A stretch of DNA of 64,000 bases, from contig CAZXMN010000001.1 of NCBI GenBank assembly GCA_964641375.1, positions 2,185 to 66,184 of the forward strand, in the 5' to 3' direction. Source of the stretch: an uncultured Candidatus Saccharibacteria bacterium (lineage in GTDB: Bacteria > Patescibacteriota > CPR2 > UBA1875 > CAIMLA01). Below are positions 12,109-58,109 of this stretch, piece by piece; position 1 is the first letter of the stretch, and each line of letters opens with the position of its first letter. A model generated the notes under the pieces. It saw nothing but the letters and a program-made list of their open reading frames with translations, did not search any database and was not told the DNA's origin. The position numbers and the translations under genes were made by a program.

Positions 12109-12137
12109 TTGACAATTTTCAGATATTATGATATTAT
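12109..12137 (+). promoter_or_regulatory. Sigma70-like promoter (TTGACA-N17-TATTAT) upstream of GC-rich cassette A
   Basis: Consensus -35 and a 5/6 -10 seen in sequence, in AT-rich DNA. Confidence 0.5.
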
Positions 12138-12186
12138 GACCAGTCAACTCGAACTTAGGTTCAAGATGACTTGCACCTTACCATTC

Positions 12187-12216
12187 ACAATATTCGCAAC
12201 CGGTCGCGAATATTGT
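12187..12216. promoter_or_regulatory. 30 bp perfect palindrome (operator-like) ACAATATTCGC-aaccggtc-GCGAATATTGT
   Basis: 11 bp perfect inverted arms with 8 bp spacer, between the promoter and the RBS of cassette A. Confidence 0.5.
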
Positions 12217-12257
12217 TGCATACCCATCAGAAATCGACCCGGAAGGGGGTCCTCATC

Positions 12258-13196
12258 GTGAGCGATGAGAGCACGGTGGTTGTGCCCGATCCGGGCCAGC
12301 CCGCAGTAACGACGGTGGAGACAAGGCCTTTCTACAAGACCGACAGAGGAATAGTGACGATTATCGTCGCTGCCCTCGTTGTTCTTGCGGCACTGGCGGC
12401 GTTCATAGTCGTCGTAACGTTCGTGATCTACACGCTCAGCTCCCAGTTCAACCCGGCGAACATCGCTGGGAAGATGGAAGCACCGCCCGCGAACCCAGGT
12501 CCAGCCTACTCCTTCGGAGTCAGAAGCTGGACCCAGTTCAAGACGGCTGCTGACGCACTGGACACGGACACAGTCGAAGGGAACATCATGTATGATTCCC
12601 TCCACGAACTCCATCCAGAGCAAGGCGACATCCGACAGGCCGTTGCAGCAATGGTTGCGCTCGAGAAGTCGGGCAAGACCTACCTGTATACCGCTCCCAA
12701 GGGCGCCGCTTTCATCAACACCGACTACAAGGTCGTTGGGGACAGCAAGCTGGGCTACCGTTTCTTCGAAGACGTGACCAAGAACAACACTACGGAGTTC
12801 CTGAAGTTCGCCGACGGAACGGTTGCCGTGAAGGCAGGATGTGCTAACGCCGTCCGCTTCCACAAGAGCGTGCCGTCTACCAAGAAGATCGTCTTCAGAC
12901 CTCCGGGAAAGAAGAAGCCCCCCACGAAGTGTGACAACAACACGGGCCAGTACAAGAAGTACGCCAGGCAAGACCCTCGCAAGAACGTCGGCAAAACCGT
13001 CGGCTACAAGCGCGGCAATGCCGAAACAGTCAGTAAGCGGCAGCAAGGTGAACCCAAGGGTGGGACAGACCCCACCCCAAGCGGTACACCTGGCACTGGT
13101 TCTGGCGGTACGACACCTGGTGGTAGCGGGAGCGGATCTCCTGCACCCAACCCTGGCTCTGGCCAGACAATCGGTGGCACCGTGCCACACCCATAG
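12258..13196 (+). CDS. GC-rich foreign-looking gene: single-pass membrane protein with extracellular domain and Gly/Thr/Pro-rich C-terminal tail
   Basis: GTG start with GGAAGGGGG RBS. The region is about 60% GC against a 40% backbone. It has an N-terminal TM helix (IVTIIVAALVVLAALAAFIVVV) and a C-terminal low-complexity GTPGTGSGGTTPGG tail. The overlapping antisense ORF is judged a GC artefact. Confidence 0.6.
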   Translation: MSDESTVVVPDPGQPAVTTVETRPFYKTDRGIVTIIVAALVVLAALAAFIVVVTFVIYTLSSQFNPANIAGKMEAPPANPGPAYSFGVRSWTQFKTAADALDTDTVEGNIMYDSLHELHPEQGDIRQAVAAMVALEKSGKTYLYTAPKGAAFINTDYKVVGDSKLGYRFFEDVTKNNTTEFLKFADGTVAVKAGCANAVRFHKSVPSTKKIVFRPPGKKKPPTKCDNNTGQYKKYARQDPRKNVGKTVGYKRGNAETVSKRQQGEPKGGTDPTPSGTPGTGSGGTTPGGSGSGSPAPNPGSGQTIGGTVPHP

Positions 13197-13212
13197 ACCG
13201 GTAGCTGCTGGA

Positions 13213-13248
13213 GGCGGCCCGATAGGCGTACATCGCCATCGGGCCGCC
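13213..13248 (+). terminator. GC-rich hairpin after cassette A (GGCGGCCCGAT...ATCGGGCCGCC)
   Basis: 11 bp perfect stem. No strong U-tract. Confidence 0.45.
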
Positions 13249-13322
13249 CCAGCGGATTCAAATTTTGTATAATGCCCAAAATAGTTAATAAAGTAAAAAA
13301 CAATTCTCGAAGGGAGAAAAGT

Positions 13323-16378: not shown

Positions 16379-17289
16379 TGCATTCATTTATACGTATGAT
16401 AAAATCCGGTTTCTCGAGCTTCATCCGCAACGGCTGGCTTTCTGTCGCTTCTATCACTGTGATGGTACTGACACTGCTTACACTGTCTATATTTTTCATT
16501 CTCAACATTGTTTTAAACACCGGCATTAAAACTATTCAAGACAAGATCGATATCTCAGTTTATTTGAACGACAACATCCAACAAAGCCAGGTTATTGATC
16601 TACAGAATAATCTTGCCGGCATGAGTGAAGTCAAATCCATAAACTACATATCAAAGGACGAAGCACTTACTAAGTTCAAAGAACAAAACAAAGATAATCA
16701 GAAACTACTTGATTCTATAAATGGCATCGACAACTCCTTGCCGGCCAGTCTAGAAATCAAAGTTTATGACCCCGGCAAGTTAGATAAGATCACAACTGTT
16801 ATTGATGCTGCAGTCTATAAACCAATAGTTATGAAGATAAGCTACCAACAGAACAAAGAGATTATCGACAAACTTTTTCGAGCAACGAATATTACGAGAC
16901 AAATCGGAATTATTATTACAATTGCTTTCACACTAGTATCACTCATCATTATCTTTAACACTGTTCGTATTGCTATTTTCTCCAGGATGGAAGAGATAGA
17001 GATTATGAAACTTGTCGGGGCCACGCCAGGTTTCATTAAGGGGCCATTTTTGATAGAAGGAACACTTTATGGCATCATAGCCACATTGATTTCGATGCTT
17101 ATTCTTTCCTCGATTCTATACTTCGCTGCACCAGCAGTCGCCAACTACATCGGCGGAGTAGGTGATAGTATCTCCAATTTCCTCCGAGACAACATCCTAG
17201 AAGTTTTGCTCATCCAACTCGGGGTCGGTATCTTTATCGGTGTCTTCTCTAGCTGGCTCGCAATCCGAAAACATCTCAGATTCAACTAA
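16378..17289 (+). CDS. ftsX: Cell division permease FtsX
   Basis: 303 aa with 4 TM helices and a large extracellular loop. Immediately follows ftsE, with GGGAGGT RBS. Confidence 0.9.
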   Translation: MHSFIRMIKSGFSSFIRNGWLSVASITVMVLTLLTLSIFFILNIVLNTGIKTIQDKIDISVYLNDNIQQSQVIDLQNNLAGMSEVKSINYISKDEALTKFKEQNKDNQKLLDSINGIDNSLPASLEIKVYDPGKLDKITTVIDAAVYKPIVMKISYQQNKEIIDKLFRATNITRQIGIIITIAFTLVSLIIIFNTVRIAIFSRMEEIEIMKLVGATPGFIKGPFLIEGTLYGIIATLISMLILSSILYFAAPAVANYIGGVGDSISNFLRDNILEVLLIQLGVGIFIGVFSSWLAIRKHLRFN

Positions 17290-17476
17290 TCGTCCCGGTC
17301 ATCCTGAGTCGGAACGAAGGGTCCAGGACCCAAATCCTAGATTCTTCACTCGGTTCAGAATGACGAGTAGTAAATCGACTGTCGTTCCGGCCCTCCCTTT
17401 CATTCCTGCGAATGCAGGGATCCACGTGGATCCCCGTGACAAGCACGAGGATGACAACGAGAGAAAACACCCAATA
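17290..17476. other. GC-richer, palindrome-dense noncoding block (candidate structured RNA or foreign remnant)
   Basis: About 53% GC against a 40% backbone. It contains GGGTCCAGGACCC, CCTGCgaatGCAGG, the perfect 16 bp palindrome GGATCCACGTGGATCC, and long-range complementarity CGGAACGA / TCGTTCCG. No credible ORF. Confidence 0.3.
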
Positions 17477-17512
17477 TTGACACATTCTTTCATAAATATG
17501 TTATAATACCCA
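17477..17512 (+). promoter_or_regulatory. Promoter with extended -10 (TTGACA ... TGtTATAAT) for the hydrolase gene
   Basis: Seen in sequence directly upstream of RBS AAGGAGGG. Confidence 0.5.
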
Positions 17513-49883: not shown

Positions 49884-49912
49884 TTTACAAAATCATAGAA
49901 ATCTTGTATAAT
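49884..49912 (+). promoter_or_regulatory. Sigma70-like promoter TTTACA-N17-TATAAT upstream of GC-rich cassette B
   Basis: Seen in sequence. Confidence 0.5.
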
Positions 49913-49973
49913 GCCGTGGAATCTAACAAGAACAATGATTTGTACACATCGGATAACCTGGGAGGTGAACGGC

Positions 49974-50192
49974 ATGACTATTAGCCAGCCGGCTCAAACG
50001 GCTACATTCTTTGGTTGGCAAGAAGATCCACAAGGCATCGGGGATCCACACCAGGTCGAGCCTGACAACGCCTGCGTCATCGAGATCTGCTTCTTCTGTC
50101 ATCGGAAATTCGAGGTGGCCAAGGGGGAGCCCAAGAGCAACGTCTGCCCGGCCTGCTACCACCGTTCTACGGCGTCCACTGAAGGAAGGTGA
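49974..50192 (+). CDS. GC-rich small zinc-ribbon protein (cassette B, gene 1)
   Basis: GGAGGTG RBS plus ATG. CFFCH...CPACYH arrangement. About 62% GC. Confidence 0.45.
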   Translation: MTISQPAQTATFFGWQEDPQGIGDPHQVEPDNACVIEICFFCHRKFEVAKGEPKSNVCPACYHRSTASTEGR

Positions 50193-50197
50193 AAGGC

Positions 50198-50389
50198 GTG
50201 CCCGATAGGATATTCCTAACTGGCCTTACCGATAAGCAAGACGATCGAGTTCGGATTCCTCTCCTCGAAGAGGATGGGGTCACTCCGAACGACAACGCTC
50301 ACGCTATCGTTCAAGTTCTCGGCATGATGGGCATCAGCATCCCGAATGTCATGCGCGGGACTGGCCTGGAGAGGATTGGCGGACACTAA
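50198..50389 (+). CDS. GC-rich small protein (cassette B, gene 2)
   Basis: GTG start after GGAAGG RBS. 63 aa. No domain recognised. Confidence 0.4.
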   Translation: MPDRIFLTGLTDKQDDRVRIPLLEEDGVTPNDNAHAIVQVLGMMGISIPNVMRGTGLERIGGH

Positions 50390-50423
50390 TCCACCAACTC
50401 TCTCAAGAACAAGGTAAATGACA

Positions 50424-50478
50424 CGACCCGTCTAGGGAGGACACACGACACTCGTCGTACCGTCTTTCACTGACGGGT
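50424..50478 (+). terminator. GC-rich hairpin closing cassette B (GACCCGTC...GACGGGTC) followed by T-rich tract
   Basis: 8-9 bp perfect stem with a structured 39 nt loop, then TTCTCTTTATCT. Confidence 0.4.
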
Positions 50479-50839
50479 CTTCTCTTTATCTAATTTTGTC
50501 CACTTTTATAGCCAAAATATATTATATAAAGTAAAAGAGCCGCGAATAGCGACTCTTTTACTTTGTTTCAAAGTTCTCCCAGATATGCAACACCGTCCGA
50601 AGACTTGACCTAGCCCAAAACTAATTGGCTGGCGGTTGCAGGGAGAACCCTACCAACAAGTAAGCTTAAAGGAGGGTGTCTAAGGCATTACTCATTGATA
50701 GGGCACTCGCGGCAACGTGCTGATGGGGAAACTTACTGTCAAACGTCATCCTGTTTTTAGGTTGACATATTATTCTAGCATTAATAACACTTTTTGTCAA
50801 GCATTTTTTGGAGGGGATGTGGATAAGGTATTAGACTAG

Positions 50840-56082: not shown

Positions 56083-56110
56083 TTGACTAATAGGTTTTTT
56101 AGGGTATAAT
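56083..56110 (+). promoter_or_regulatory. Near-consensus sigma70 promoter TTGACT-N16-TATAAT upstream of GC-rich cassette C
   Basis: Seen in sequence. Followed by the GTCCGA-gtttgaa-TCGGAC hairpin at 56123-56141. Confidence 0.55.
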
Positions 56111-56168: not shown

Positions 56169-56546
56169 ATGAGGGGGCAAGGGTTCGATTGGCTTGCTCG
56201 CAGACTCAGGGCAAGTCGCTCATGCAAGGCGTATTTCGATCACACGGTTCCGAACCCGCCGGCCATCAAGGTCATCTGGTATGACCACGTCGACGAGCCC
56301 CACTCCATGATCTTCCGTCTCGACTTCAAGGATGCTGACTGGGCGAGATGCTCCAGTTGGTTCACCAACGACGAGCTCATGTCCGTCTGGGACTGTCTGA
56401 GCGATCTGGGGGAGCATAGCTCCACCGAGTACGAACTGCTCAGGCATTTCCGCCGGCTTCTGCTCGACCGTTCGATCCGGGTGGTCCTGCCGACGAAGAC
56501 GACCGTGACAACTACCACCGAAGCCGCCCCCGCATTCGCGGCCTGA
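56169..56546 (+). CDS. GC-rich hypothetical protein (cassette C), 125 aa
   Basis: GAGGGGAGAACGGGG RBS plus ATG. About 62% GC. Thr-rich C-terminus. No domain recognised. Confidence 0.5.
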   Translation: MRGQGFDWLARRLRASRSCKAYFDHTVPNPPAIKVIWYDHVDEPHSMIFRLDFKDADWARCSSWFTNDELMSVWDCLSDLGEHSSTEYELLRHFRRLLLDRSIRVVLPTKTTVTTTTEAAPAFAA

Positions 56547-56551
56547 CCACA

Positions 56552-56610
56552 CAACGCGCGCCCGCAACGAGCACTCTCAAGAGAGCCCGTTCCGGGCGCT
56601 CTTGCTTTTC
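56552..56610 (+). repeat. About 57 bp 3' cassette element, copy 1 (contains 12 bp-stem GC hairpin CAAGAGAGCCCG/CGGGCGCTCTTG plus CTTTT)
   Basis: About 85% identical to 57984-58040, including the identical core CCCGTTCCGGGCGCTCTTGCTTT. Confidence 0.6.
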
Positions 56611-56761
56611 AACCTTAAATGATATGCACTTATTCCCTATGGTTGGGCTATTAGTTGAAAAGGGGAGTATAATATAAATATCAAGCAATAACTCCAAATA
56701 TGGAGATGTTTAATGTTTAACGTCCATTACCGGCCTCGGTTAGGGGTCAGAAAGAGATAAC

Positions 56762-57154
56762 ATGGAGACACACACAGAGGAAACCGTAACTACAGAGAAA
56801 AATAACACTGGTCAGTCGACCCGTAAACCAACTAGAAGAGAAGCTACCGGCTCTCAGACGACTGCATACATAGTTTATTTTATTTTTGGAGTACTTGAAG
56901 TGCTTTTGGCTTTCCGTCTAGTACTTAGACTGTTAGGAGCAAACCCAGTTAGTTCATTTGTAAACTTCATTTACAATCTATCCGCAGCCTTCATCTGGCC
57001 ATTCCAAGGAATATTTCACACCGCTGTAACGGCAGGTGCAGAGACTACCGCAGTTTTTGAACCAGCAACACTTATAGCCATCATTGTCTATGCAATAGTT
57101 GCTTGGGGTATAGTAAAATTGATAATTATCCTTTCAGGCGCGAAGGAGGAATAG
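56762..57154 (+). CDS. YggT-like small membrane protein
   Basis: Two TM helices with an FRLVLRLLGANP...P motif reminiscent of the YGGT family. AT-rich native composition. Confidence 0.4.
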   Translation: METHTEETVTTEKNNTGQSTRKPTRREATGSQTTAYIVYFIFGVLEVLLAFRLVLRLLGANPVSSFVNFIYNLSAAFIWPFQGIFHTAVTAGAETTAVFEPATLIAIIVYAIVAWGIVKLIIILSGAKEE

Positions 57155-57409
57155 ATGGACATCATATATTGGATTGTTTTTGGTCTCATCGCAGGAAGCA
57201 TCGCAAACTTCATATCTCCCAGCGGTCGAGGCGGGATACTGTGGTCCATTATCTTAGGTATTATTGGAGCAGTTGTCGGCGGGTTTCTCGGTCAAATGTT
57301 CTTCGGTGTTGGAGTTACTGGCTTCAACCTGAGTTCATTTTTTCTGGCTGTAATTGGCTCCCTTATTGTTCTTTTTACCGCCCGTTTATTCACTCGTAAC
57401 CAATCATAA
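57155..57409 (+). CDS. GlsB/YeaQ/YmgE-family (transglycosylase-associated) membrane protein
   Basis: 84 aa Gly-rich 3-TM protein (IVFGLIAGSIANFI...GIIGAVVGGFLG). Confidence 0.6.
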   Translation: MDIIYWIVFGLIAGSIANFISPSGRGGILWSIILGIIGAVVGGFLGQMFFGVGVTGFNLSSFFLAVIGSLIVLFTARLFTRNQS

Positions 57410-57433
57410 TATTGGCTGACGCGAAATATTAAG

Positions 57434-57480
57434 CGAAACTAAATAGAGTGCCTTTTTATGGGCGCTCTATTTAGTTTCGC
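57434..57480. terminator. 15 bp perfect inverted repeat CGAAACTAAATAGAG / CTCTATTTAGTTTCG (hairpin with 17 nt loop)
   Basis: Seen in sequence between the GlsB-like gene and cassette D. Terminator or protein-binding site. Confidence 0.45.
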
Positions 57481-57553
57481 TATGCTTGATTTATTCTCAT
57501 TTTTATGGTTTAATGTTCGAGCTCTTTCCGAAAACCGTATAAGGAGGCTGACA

Positions 57554-57982
57554 TTGAGAGGCATAGCTCACGACCCACACAGTGTCACCGCCATCGTAAA
57601 AGATGAGGAATCTGTGTTGGTACGAGGGTGGGTGAGTAGGGTTGAAGAAGAAAAGAAAGGGACCTTCGTCTACCTCAGGACAGAGCGATATCCTGATCGG
57701 GAGTTCCGTGCCGCTGTAAGACGCAAGAAACAGCCTTTTGGCTCTATGCGAACTGTCAAGCTACAAAAGGACCAAGTGTACCCGGTGGTATGGTGGCCTG
57801 CCGATCTCAGGCTTGAGATTGAGACCCGAGTTTGCTTCGGTGTGAACCTAGTCGATAATGTCGCATTCCCGGTAATCCTGGAGGCGACTTACGACAGACT
57901 CTCAGCAAAGCTGACGGATCGTGACTTCACTCCACTTACCATCACTACGAATGGCCAGCATCGTTGGACGGAAGACACCTAA
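57554..57982 (+). CDS. GC-rich hypothetical protein (cassette D), 142 aa
   Basis: AAGGAGG RBS, then a TTG start 7 nt downstream. GC-rich body after an AT-rich leader. No domain recognised. Confidence 0.45.
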   Translation: MRGIAHDPHSVTAIVKDEESVLVRGWVSRVEEEKKGTFVYLRTERYPDREFRAAVRRKKQPFGSMRTVKLQKDQVYPVVWWPADLRLEIETRVCFGVNLVDNVAFPVILEATYDRLSAKLTDRDFTPLTITTNGQHRWTEDT

Positions 57983-57983
57983 C

Positions 57984-58040
57984 TCACGCGCCCGTAATGA
58001 GAACTCGCAAGAGCTCCCGTTCCGGGCGCTCTTGCTTTCT
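57984..58040 (+). repeat. About 57 bp 3' cassette element, copy 2 (hairpin CAAGAGCTCCCG/CGGGCGCTCTTG plus CTTTCT)
   Basis: Paralogous to 56552-56610. Confidence 0.6.
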
Positions 58041-58109
58041 ATAATTAGACCAAGGTCGAAATTTTGTCTTCACGAAGATATGTTGTATCATAAACAAAAG
58101 GAGACTGGA

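What the first reader, a model, noticed from the sequence alone, without database searches (positions are those of the whole stretch)
56552..58040. Shared about 57 bp 3' element on two different GC-rich cassettes
The sequences after the stop codons of the unrelated ORFs 56169-56546 and 57554-57982 are about 85% identical (ACGCGC.CCCG.AA.GAG.ACTC.CAAGAG..CCCGTTCCGGGCGCTCTTGCTTT) and fold into a 12 bp-stem hairpin. The single stem mismatch falls at a different position in each copy. Two non-homologous genes carrying the same tail implies either the same donor terminator family or a cassette-associated recombination or structured site. I checked for integron attC features and found no GTTRRRY core.
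Basis: seen in the sequence. Interest (0 to 1): 0.65.

Follow-up and report, generated by a model that had tools for sequence, protein, structure and literature searches.

The report
Shared two-hairpin terminator on foreign cassettes
Two unrelated, GC-rich orphan genes in a small low-GC (Patescibacteria-type) bacterial genome end in the same ~55-base RNA tail, a conserved double-hairpin transcription terminator that also follows other orphan genes in cassette arrays in other metagenomes, so it marks a family of self-contained, horizontally moving expression cassettes, not a new kind of machinery.

Summary
There are two copies, 56557-56608 and 57987-58038. They are 46/52 identical, nothing else in the window matches, and none is expected by chance. 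Each starts 5-11 nt after the stop codon of an unrelated GC-rich ORFan.

The tail is not private to this locus. A weak homologue of ORF1 on another metagenomic contig (L015) carries a clearly homologous tail. Two further genes in that 4-cassette array carry it too, and there the stop codon lies inside the tail.

Across six aligned tails, two mutually exclusive hairpins are both supported by compensatory changes:
It has UUC/UUCG/CUUG loops and is followed by a U-run.
- Hairpin b is a longer 16-17-bp stem that uses an upstream heptamer GCGCCCG.

Each cassette has its own sigma-70-like promoter, RBS, ORFan and tail. Host terminators in the window are AT-rich simple hairpins.

No integrase, reverse transcriptase or transposase was found among about 50 window ORFs. 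The attC core motifs are absent. Rfam, phage, plasmid and viral-contig searches gave nothing.

Best reading: a conserved compound intrinsic terminator that belongs to moron-like foreign cassettes and is exchanged among them. A recombination-site role is not excluded but has no positive support. Interest is moderate.

The parts
56083..56110 (+). Promoter of cassette C: TTGACT, 16 nt spacer, TATAAT
   Evidence: Consensus scan, 11 of 12 matches. AT-rich, and lies 25 nt after the heliorhodopsin stop codon. Function is inferred.
56169..56546 (+). ORF1, a 125-aa GC-rich ORFan (60% GC, GC3 77%)
   Evidence: The codon-position GC pattern GC3 > GC1 > GC2 fits coding on the + strand. No Pfam or PHROG family. 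Only same-species hits in the 5.8-billion-protein search. Weak same-size homologues P0124, P0125 and P0127 in the exhaustive search. AF2 model has pLDDT 77 and no PDB fold match.
56550..56613 (+). Tail copy 1, whole element as matched by the covariance model
   Evidence: Model R1, 65.3 bits. Repeat family D1.
56558..56599 (+). Copy 1, long hairpin b. Outer stem GCGCCCG (56558-56564) pairs with CGGGCGC (56593-56599); inner helices are separated by three 1x1 loops
   Evidence: Minimum-energy fold, -27 kcal/mol. 100% of cells paired across the window copies and the strain variant. 97% paired across six tails with 4 compensatory pairs.
56578..56609 (+). Copy 1, short hairpin a (CAAGAGAGCCCG-TTC-CGGGCGCTCTTG) plus C-UUUU
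   Evidence: 90% paired with 5 compensatory pairs across six tails. Becomes the minimum-energy fold when the upstream heptamer is blocked.
57486..57514 (+). Putative promoter of cassette D: TTGATT, 17 nt spacer, TTTAAT
   Evidence: Read by eye. Not reported by the scan because of its -10 rule. Inferred only.
57554..57982 (+). ORF2, a 142-aa ORFan (52% GC), TTG start 6 nt after AAGGAGG
   Evidence: No family. Only same-species homologues. Gene callers extend it to 174 aa starting at 57458.
57980..58043 (+). Tail copy 2, whole element
   Evidence: Model R1, 58.9 bits. Repeat family D1.
57988..58029 (+). Copy 2, long hairpin b
   Evidence: Minimum-energy fold, -24.2 kcal/mol. Relative to copy 1 it has a C-G to A-U compensatory pair and a C-G to U-G change.
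58008..58038 (+). Copy 2, short hairpin a plus C-UUU
   Evidence: Centroid fold. Pair counts.
50425..50489 (+). Tail of another GC-rich island (B). The sequence is unrelated but the layout is the same: GACCCGTC ... ACCGTC-loop-GACGGGTC followed by a U-run
   Evidence: Related by architecture only; it cannot be aligned to the other tails.

Best explanation
The tails are two members of a conserved family of compound Rho-independent terminators. They are the 3'-UTR module of self-contained, foreign expression cassettes, each built as: own strong sigma-70-type promoter, RBS, GC-rich orphan ORF, tail. These cassettes sit between housekeeping genes of a low-GC Patescibacteria-type chromosome.

In the RNA, two direct-repeat arms compete for one inverted arm, CGGGCGC:
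- DR1 is GCGCCCG. It lies 4-11 nt after the stop codon, or overlaps it.
- DR2 is GnGCCCG.

Pairing with DR1 gives a long interrupted 16-17-bp hairpin (b). Pairing with DR2 gives a 12-bp hairpin (a) with a UUC, UUCG or CUUG loop. Either hairpin is followed directly by a U-rich run, so either can stop RNA polymerase.

My inference is that this is a fail-safe. A ribosome parked on the stop codon covers DR1 and would disable a simple terminator placed that close. DR2 lies out of its reach and takes over.

Unrelated ORFs share the tail because the module is inherited and exchanged among cassettes, by duplication, gene conversion or ORF replacement in arrays such as L015. It is not because the genes are duplicates.

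Shown:
- the repeat
- both structures with covariation
- homologous tails on other cassettes elsewhere
- the cassette anatomy
- the foreign base composition

Inferred:
- actual termination
- the role of the ribosome
- the mode of exchange
For: Repeat and position.

Both hairpins fold better than shuffles.

Hairpin b: 97% of 99 cells paired, 4 pairs with double changes, 0/500 shuffles reach the score, slid controls at most 51% paired.

Hairpin a: 90% of 72 cells paired, 5 pairs with double changes, 0/500 shuffles.

The loops of hairpin a are UUC, UUCG or CUUG. A U-rich run follows in every member.

Blocking DR1 switches the minimum-energy fold from b to a in all 9 tails examined. These include three remote tails (L014, L018 x2) whose sequence is barely or not alignable. 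Island B's tail shows the same layout but was not tested with the same blocked-DR1 result.

Homologous tails follow an ORF1 homologue and two unrelated paralogous genes in array L015, each followed by a consensus promoter.

Tail identity follows the genome, not the gene: 88% within the window, 71-74% within L015, 63-71% between them. The tails of ORF1 and of its L015 homologue are only 67% identical.

Host terminators in the window are AT-rich simple hairpins. The heptamers occur 3 and 2 times in 64 kb.

The ORFs are coding by GC3. They are under relaxed or diversifying selection, with 1 synonymous, 4 non-synonymous and 1 nonsense change against 64:19 in neighbouring genes, p = 0.005. Tail changes, by contrast, keep the structure.

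In E. coli, terminators placed a few bases after a stop codon are repressed by the ribosome (PMC4824070, abstract seen).
Against: - There are no transcript 3'-end data.
- The U-runs are short and interrupted (CUUUU, CUUU).
- The alignment for hairpin b was made by hand to fit the structure, with N used as gap filler. It holds six sequences from only two genomes plus one strain variant.
- With the three window-lineage sequences alone, the shuffle control is not significant (167/500).
- Conservation of primary sequence in DR1 and in CAAYGAG goes beyond what a terminator needs.
- Neither a donor nor an empty site was found.
Confidence: 0.6

Rival explanations
1. The tail is a cassette recombination or mobilisation site. 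It would be a folded single-strand DNA hairpin, analogous to integron attC or to the hairpin ends used by HUH transposases, through which ORF cassettes are captured or swapped. Terminator-like features would be secondary.
For: - An imperfect palindrome of 52-57 nt at the 3' end of every cassette, sometimes overlapping the stop codon.
- An array of non-homologous cassettes that share it (L015).
- Tails are more alike within a genome than between orthologous cassettes, as with species-specific attC sites.
- Primary sequence is conserved in the outer stem.
- The bottom strand folds even more stably, -36 and -28 kcal/mol.
Against: - No RYYYAAC or GTTRRRY cores. The AAC of copy 1 is AAT in copy 2.
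- The internal loops are symmetric 1x1 mismatches, not extrahelical bases.
- U.G wobbles keep the top-strand structure and would be A.C mismatches on the bottom strand.
- No integrase, transposase or reverse transcriptase among about 50 ORFs of the window.
- The cassettes carry their own promoters.
- There is no partial tail at the 5' edge of either window cassette.
- A U-run is always on the sense strand.
Confidence: 0.12
2. The tail is only the inherited 3' end of one ancestral gene: its last codons plus its terminator. Local duplication left it behind, and the upstream coding sequence was replaced or diverged beyond recognition. There would be no selection on the shared sequence as such.
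For: - In L015, genes 1 and 2 read into the tail and stop at its TGA, giving ...HNTRPQ* and ...TTCPQ*.
- ORF1 and ORF2 lie in that same frame relative to the tail (read).
- Only two copies exist in this species, 1430 bp apart and in the same orientation.
Against: - ORF1 and ORF2 show no similarity. Yet ORF1 still recognisably matches homologues whose tails are much more diverged (67%) than the two window tails are from each other (88%).
- Substitutions are structure-preserving or compensatory in two overlapping helices. That indicates selection on the RNA.
- The tail is better conserved than the proteins it follows (30-37% protein identity).
Confidence: 0.1
3. The two alternative hairpins form a true regulatory switch or a processing/stability element. 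One version is read-through control of the downstream gene coupled to translation of the cassette ORF. Another is a 3'-UTR-derived small RNA. In either case it is not a constitutive terminator.
For: - Two mutually exclusive helices are both kept by covariation.
- DR1 lies within ribosome reach of the stop codon in 8 of 9 tails.
- In arrays the next cassette follows within about 100 nt.
Against: - Both conformations end in a hairpin followed by a U-rich run, so neither is an obvious anti-terminator.
- Every downstream gene has its own consensus promoter.
- No Rfam family matches.
Confidence: 0.1

Closest known systems
Rho-independent (intrinsic) terminators, including multi-hairpin or clustered-hairpin terminators (PMC8355165, abstract seen)
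   Same: A GC-rich hairpin with stable UUCG/CUUG-type loops, directly followed by a U-rich run. It lies on the sense strand just after a stop codon.
   Different: - About 55 nt of primary sequence is conserved across non-homologous genes and across genomes.
- Two overlapping, mutually exclusive hairpins are both kept by compensatory changes.
- The 5' arm can lie over the stop codon.
Phage morons (PMC3594210)
   Same: An independent transcription unit with its own promoter and terminator. Its GC content differs from its neighbours, and it is inserted between genes that are otherwise housekeeping.
   Different: - The setting here is a bacterial chromosome with no phage genes nearby, and no PHROG hit.
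- Morons are not known to share one conserved terminator sequence.
Integron gene cassettes with attC sites, including species-specific chromosomal arrays and integrase-less attC clusters (compared from my own knowledge of the family; PMC8352920 was seen only as a title and abstract and was not read)
   Same: A 3' imperfect palindrome of about 55-60 nt on each of a series of unrelated small ORFs. It is sometimes overlapped by the stop codon, and it is more uniform within a genome than between genomes.
   Different: - The core motifs and extrahelical bases are absent.
- No integron integrase is present.
- The cassettes have their own promoters.
- A sense-strand U-run is present.
- The window cassettes are separated by host genes.
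REP/MITE-type intergenic palindromes and uptake-sequence pairs that double as terminators (from general knowledge, not tested against a library)
   Same: A conserved palindromic sequence downstream of unrelated genes.
   Different: Only 2 copies in 64 kb, and only this locus in all public sets searched. The heptamers are not over-represented. The orientation is fixed and the element is tightly joined to the stop codon.

Membership tests
Intrinsic (Rho-independent) terminator | Stable GC-rich RNA hairpin on the sense strand downstream of the stop codon | tested here: met
   Two hairpins, -21 to -31 kcal/mol, z about -4.
Intrinsic (Rho-independent) terminator | U-rich tract immediately 3' of the stem | tested here: met
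   After hairpin b: UCUUGCUUUU. After hairpin a: CUUUU or CUUU. Also present in all L015, L014 and L018 tails. The tracts are short and interrupted.
Intrinsic (Rho-independent) terminator | Transcripts end at the U-tract | not testable with these tools
   No RNA data are available.
Integron attC site | R''/R' core sites RYYYAAC ... GTTRRRY | tested here: not met
   Nearest strings are CCGCAAC / GTTCCGG in copy 1 and CCGTAAT / GTTCCGG in copy 2. None fits on either strand.
Integron attC site | Extrahelical bases and an unpaired central spacer in the folded bottom strand | tested here: not met
   The window copies have three symmetric 1x1 internal loops. The L015 copies have a single-base bulge at varying positions.
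Integron attC site | Integron integrase (tyrosine recombinase) next to the array | tested here: not met
   Pfam scan of about 50 ORFs of the 64-kb window found housekeeping genes only. The rest of the genome was not seen.
Integron attC site | Promoterless cassettes expressed from a common promoter | tested here: not met
   Each cassette has its own near-consensus -35/-10.
Phage moron | Own promoter and terminator, with GC content unlike the neighbours | tested here: met
   Definition taken from PMC3594210.
Phage moron | Located in a phage or prophage genome | tested here: not met
   Neighbours are topA, msrA/B, heliorhodopsin, der and pth. No PHROG hits. No match in phage records or viral contigs.
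REP / MITE repeat | Many dispersed copies per genome | tested here: not met
   2 copies in the window. The 20-mer core finds only this locus in metagenome and genome collections.
DGR target (variable region plus IMH and hairpin) | Reverse transcriptase and a template repeat whose differences fall at adenines | tested here: not met
   No reverse transcriptase in the window. Similarity starts only at the stop codon. The differences are C>T, C>A, T>G, A>C and G>T.
Any Rfam family | Match to a curated covariance model | tested here: not met
   Only 3 tRNAs at gathering score. Nothing at the tails even at E <= 10.

The most novel reading that the evidence does not exclude
The tail is the signature of an undescribed cassette system in Patescibacteria-type genomes. 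Orphan genes would be packaged as promoter-ORF-tail units, and the conserved double-hairpin tail would be the handle by which they are captured, swapped or homogenised. That would be an integron-like gene-shuffling platform without an integron integrase. At the RNA level the same tail would act as a ribosome-proof terminator.
Probability: 0.15. Interest if true: 0.8.

Novelty: new variant of a known kind. Interest (0 to 1): 0.5.

Why it matters
If the reading holds, it gives three things:
1. A recognisable sequence and structure tag, which can be searched with a covariance model. It would find a class of fast-evolving orphan-gene cassettes in ultra-small bacteria whose accessory genes are otherwise invisible to homology searches.
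2. A natural example of a terminator built with two alternative 5' arms. This may solve the known problem that a ribosome at a nearby stop codon disables a terminator. It would be useful as a compact synthetic-biology part.
3. A concrete test case for whether terminator-like hairpins can become cassette recombination sites, which is a long-standing idea about how attC sites arose.

If it is only a terminator, it is a tidy but ordinary result.

Tried and rejected
Searches that found nothing useful:
- Exact 20-mer core in the genome collection gave 2 hits, both chance matches inside GC-rich coding sequence of Achromobacter and an Acidimicrobiia MAG.
- The same 20-mer in the metagenome collection gave 5 hits. 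Three are this same locus in the same species and two are chance.
- Viral contigs gave 0 hits for the 20-mer and 0 for a family pattern.
- Phage and plasmid records gave no DNA or protein match for the cassettes, the tail or the L015 array. The one hit was a chance-level E = 0.4 match.

Empty-site comparison failed:
- All contigs that share the locus are at least 99% identical and carry both cassettes.
- Four relatives with 82-85% identical heliorhodopsin have entirely different neighbours.

Ideas tested and dropped:
- The GC-rich islands being structured non-coding RNAs. Dropped because the codon-position GC pattern is strongly periodic, whole-cassette folding reaches only z = -2.4, and Rfam is empty.
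- Coding on the minus strand of ORF1, which one gene caller had called in L010. Dropped because of GC3, the promoter, the RBS and the direction of the U-run.
- Uptake-signal sequence. Dropped because the heptamers are not over-represented.
- DGR. Dropped, see the membership test.

Dead ends:
- The ORF1 structure model gave no fold match. The afdb50 library was unavailable.
- Several calls were lost to coordinate errors.
Full report
**Setting**

The window is about 41% GC and almost all genes lie on the + strand. They are housekeeping genes: SecA, several tRNA synthetases, RecO, GreA, PrfB, FtsEX, MreB, MurC-like, ScpAB, Der, Pth, TopA and MsrA/B. There is also a heliorhodopsin, whose nearest named relatives are from Patescibacteria MAGs, and a TrwB-like protein at the end. 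Among about 50 ORFs scanned with Pfam there is no integrase, transposase, reverse transcriptase or phage gene.

**The observation**

The two tails are real.
- 56557-56608 and 57987-58038 are 46/52 identical without gaps.
- Nothing else in the window matches the core within 3 mismatches, and shuffles give none.
- Copy 1 begins 11 nt after the TGA of ORF1 (56169-56546). Copy 2 begins 5 nt after the TAA of ORF2 (57554-57982).
- The two proteins are unrelated.
- ORF1 is 60% GC and ORF2 is 52% GC.

**Cassette anatomy**

Each ORF is a complete transcription unit.
- ORF1 has TTGACT-16-TATAAT at 56083-56110, a GC-rich leader and a GGGGAG-type RBS.
- ORF2 has a weaker TTGATT-17-TTTAAT, found by eye, and AAGGAGG 6 nt before a TTG start.
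- The ORFs are coding. GC3 is 77% in ORF1, with the order GC3 > GC1 > GC2, and the antisense frames have the wrong pattern.
- They have no Pfam or PHROG family.
- In a 5.8-billion-protein word-indexed search they hit only the same species.

Two more islands in the window have the same build: A at 12120-13260 and B at 49884-50489. So does an island in a relative, L013 4340-5075.

Host terminators in the window are AT-rich simple hairpins with A and U runs. The GC-rich tails therefore belong to the foreign DNA.

**The tail is a family**

An exhaustive HMMER search with ORF1 found three weak homologues of the same size (114-128 aa, 30-37% identity). Their contigs could be fetched.

On L015, a 2.1-kb contig from JGI 3300025888, the homologue is followed by GCCACAACCGCGCCCGCAATGAGTACCATGAAAGGTGCCCGCTTGCGGGCGCCTTTCATTTT. 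This is plainly homologous to the window tails.

The two genes upstream on L015 are paralogues of each other and unrelated to ORF1. They end in two further copies, and in both the TGA stop codon is the TGA of the conserved CAATGAG/CAGTGAG.

Each L015 tail is followed within 10-25 nt by a near-consensus promoter for the next GC-rich ORF. L015 is therefore a contiguous array of promoter-ORF-tail units.

Remote members come after the homologues on L014 and L018, and another follows a neighbouring L018 gene. They keep the layout but little of the sequence. A model built on the six close tails scores them at 12-20 bits.

**Structure**

The conserved block holds two direct-repeat arms and one inverted arm. 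DR1 is GCGCCCG, DR2 is GnGCCCG, and the inverted arm is CGGGCGC plus the start of the U-rich run.
- DR2 with the inverted arm gives hairpin a: 12 bp, with loops UUC, UUCG or CUUG.
- DR1 with the inverted arm, plus inner helices, gives hairpin b: 16-17 bp with 1x1 loops, and GCAA loops in two copies.
- Hairpin b is the minimum-energy fold in 8 of 9 tails.

Within the window lineage, every difference fits hairpin b:
- two lie in internal loops
- one lies in the hairpin loop
- one is C-G to U-G
- one pair is C-G to A-U
- both strain variants of copy 1 (56565 C>A, 56577 T>G) lie in unpaired positions

Across six tails:
- Hairpin b has 97% of cells paired and 4 pairs with changes on both sides.
- Hairpin a has 90% of cells paired and 5 such pairs.
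- For both, 0/500 column shuffles reach the covariation score, and slid controls pair at most 52%.

In L015_a, a G>A change in the shared arm is matched by C>T in DR1 and by a T in DR2. That one change supports both helices at once.

Caveats:
- The alignment for hairpin b was hand-made, with N as gap filler.
- The sequences come from two genomes plus one strain variant.
- The alignment for hairpin a is ungapped and natural.

**Mechanism**

Both conformations are a hairpin followed at once by a U-rich run. The simplest function is therefore intrinsic termination at the end of each cassette.

DR1 lies over the stop codon, or 4-14 nt after it, in 8 of 9 tails. When DR1 and the upstream sequence are made unavailable in the folding calculation, the fold flips to hairpin a in every tail. 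In E. coli, a terminator placed a few bases after a gene is almost completely repressed by the translating ribosome (PMC4824070).

I therefore propose a fail-safe terminator. Hairpin b forms on untranslated RNA or after the ribosome has left. Hairpin a forms when the terminating ribosome covers DR1. This step is inference, and no RNA data were available.

**Why unrelated genes share the tail**

Tail similarity follows the genome, not the gene. It is 88% within the window, 71-74% within L015 and 63-71% between them. The tails of ORF1 and of its L015 homologue are 67% identical. This points to duplication, gene conversion or ORF replacement among cassettes, not gene duplication.

ORF1, ORF2 and L015 genes 1 and 2 all lie in the same frame relative to the tail. 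In that frame the tail reads H-N-x-R-P-Q-stop. This hints that ORFs have been joined to, or have grown into, a pre-existing 3' module. I could not test this further.

In the population, the cassette ORFs evolve loosely. They show 1 synonymous, 4 non-synonymous and 1 nonsense change, against 64:19 in 13 flanking genes (Fisher p = 0.005). The tails change only in ways that keep the structure.

**What it is not**

- *Not a canonical attC.* There are no RYYYAAC/GTTRRRY cores. The internal loops are symmetric mismatches, not extrahelical bases. The wobble pairs favour the top strand. There is no integrase. The cassettes carry promoters, and there is no partial site at their 5' edges.
- *Not a REP/MITE or uptake sequence.* There are two copies only and the heptamers are not enriched.
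- *Not a DGR target.*
- *Not in Rfam*.
- *Not found in phage, plasmid or viral-contig collections*.
- *Not a structured non-coding RNA island*.

**Limits**

- No donor organism, no empty site and no larger array could be obtained.
The true spread of the family is therefore unknown.
- The function of ORF1 remains unknown. Its AF2 model has pLDDT 77 and no PDB fold match.

**Verdict**

The finding is confirmed and is more than a local duplication. It is a conserved, structured 3' module of moron-like orphan-gene cassettes, and most likely a compound terminator. It is a new variant of known kinds and of moderate interest. There is a minority chance (about 0.15) that the tail is also the handle of an undescribed cassette-shuffling system.

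Noticed in passing
window 12120-13260 and 49884-50489: Two more GC-rich ORFan islands, A and B. Each has its own consensus-like promoter and a GC-rich hairpin tail. Island A holds ORF 12258-13196. Island B holds ORFs 49974-50192 and 50189-50389. Island B's tail (50425-50489) has the same two-arm, one-inverted-arm layout as the finding, but an unrelated sequence.
   Followed up: partly
window 56169-56546 and 57554-57982 compared with L003-L011: Population variants in the cassette ORFs are 1 synonymous, 4 non-synonymous and 1 nonsense (ORF2 W81* at 57795 in contig L005). In 13 flanking host genes the counts are 64 synonymous to 19 non-synonymous (Fisher p = 0.005). This fits relaxed or diversifying selection on the cassette proteins.
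   Followed up: yes
window 56544-56575, 57977-58000; L015 411-422 and 1014-1034: ORF1, ORF2 and L015 genes 1 and 2 are all in the same reading frame relative to the tail. In L015 genes 1 and 2 the tail supplies the last codons (..TRPQ / ..TCPQ) and the stop codon. In copy 2 the tail carries in-frame TAA TGA.
   Followed up: partly
window 54640: The window lacks one base here relative to all three related contigs that cover the site (L003, L004, L010). As a result the msrA ORF ends differently: 172 aa here against 158 aa called there. This is either a strain polymorphism or an assembly error.
   Followed up: no
window 56058 onward; L012, L013, L019, L020: The DNA downstream of the heliorhodopsin gene is completely different in four relatives whose heliorhodopsin is 82-85% identical. 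It holds restriction-modification, Fic, radical SAM and fn3 genes, among others. This position looks like a variable hot spot.
   Followed up: partly
window 17290-17470: A GC-richer intergenic stretch between ftsX and the next gene. It carries only a spurious-looking 88-aa ORF (17240-17506). It could be a repeat element or a small RNA.
   Followed up: no
ORF1 residues 69-120 (window 56373-56528): The C-terminal helices of ORF1 match a salmon epiplakin (P0123) in 12 repeated stretches, E = 6e-19. This could be a plakin-repeat-like helix pair or a compositional artefact.
   Followed up: no
L014 1-5858: The ORF1 homologue P0124 is the second gene of a two-gene GC-rich cassette. The cassette lies next to GIY-YIG, GNAT and GmrSD (type IV restriction) genes, which looks like a defence-island setting.
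   Followed up: no
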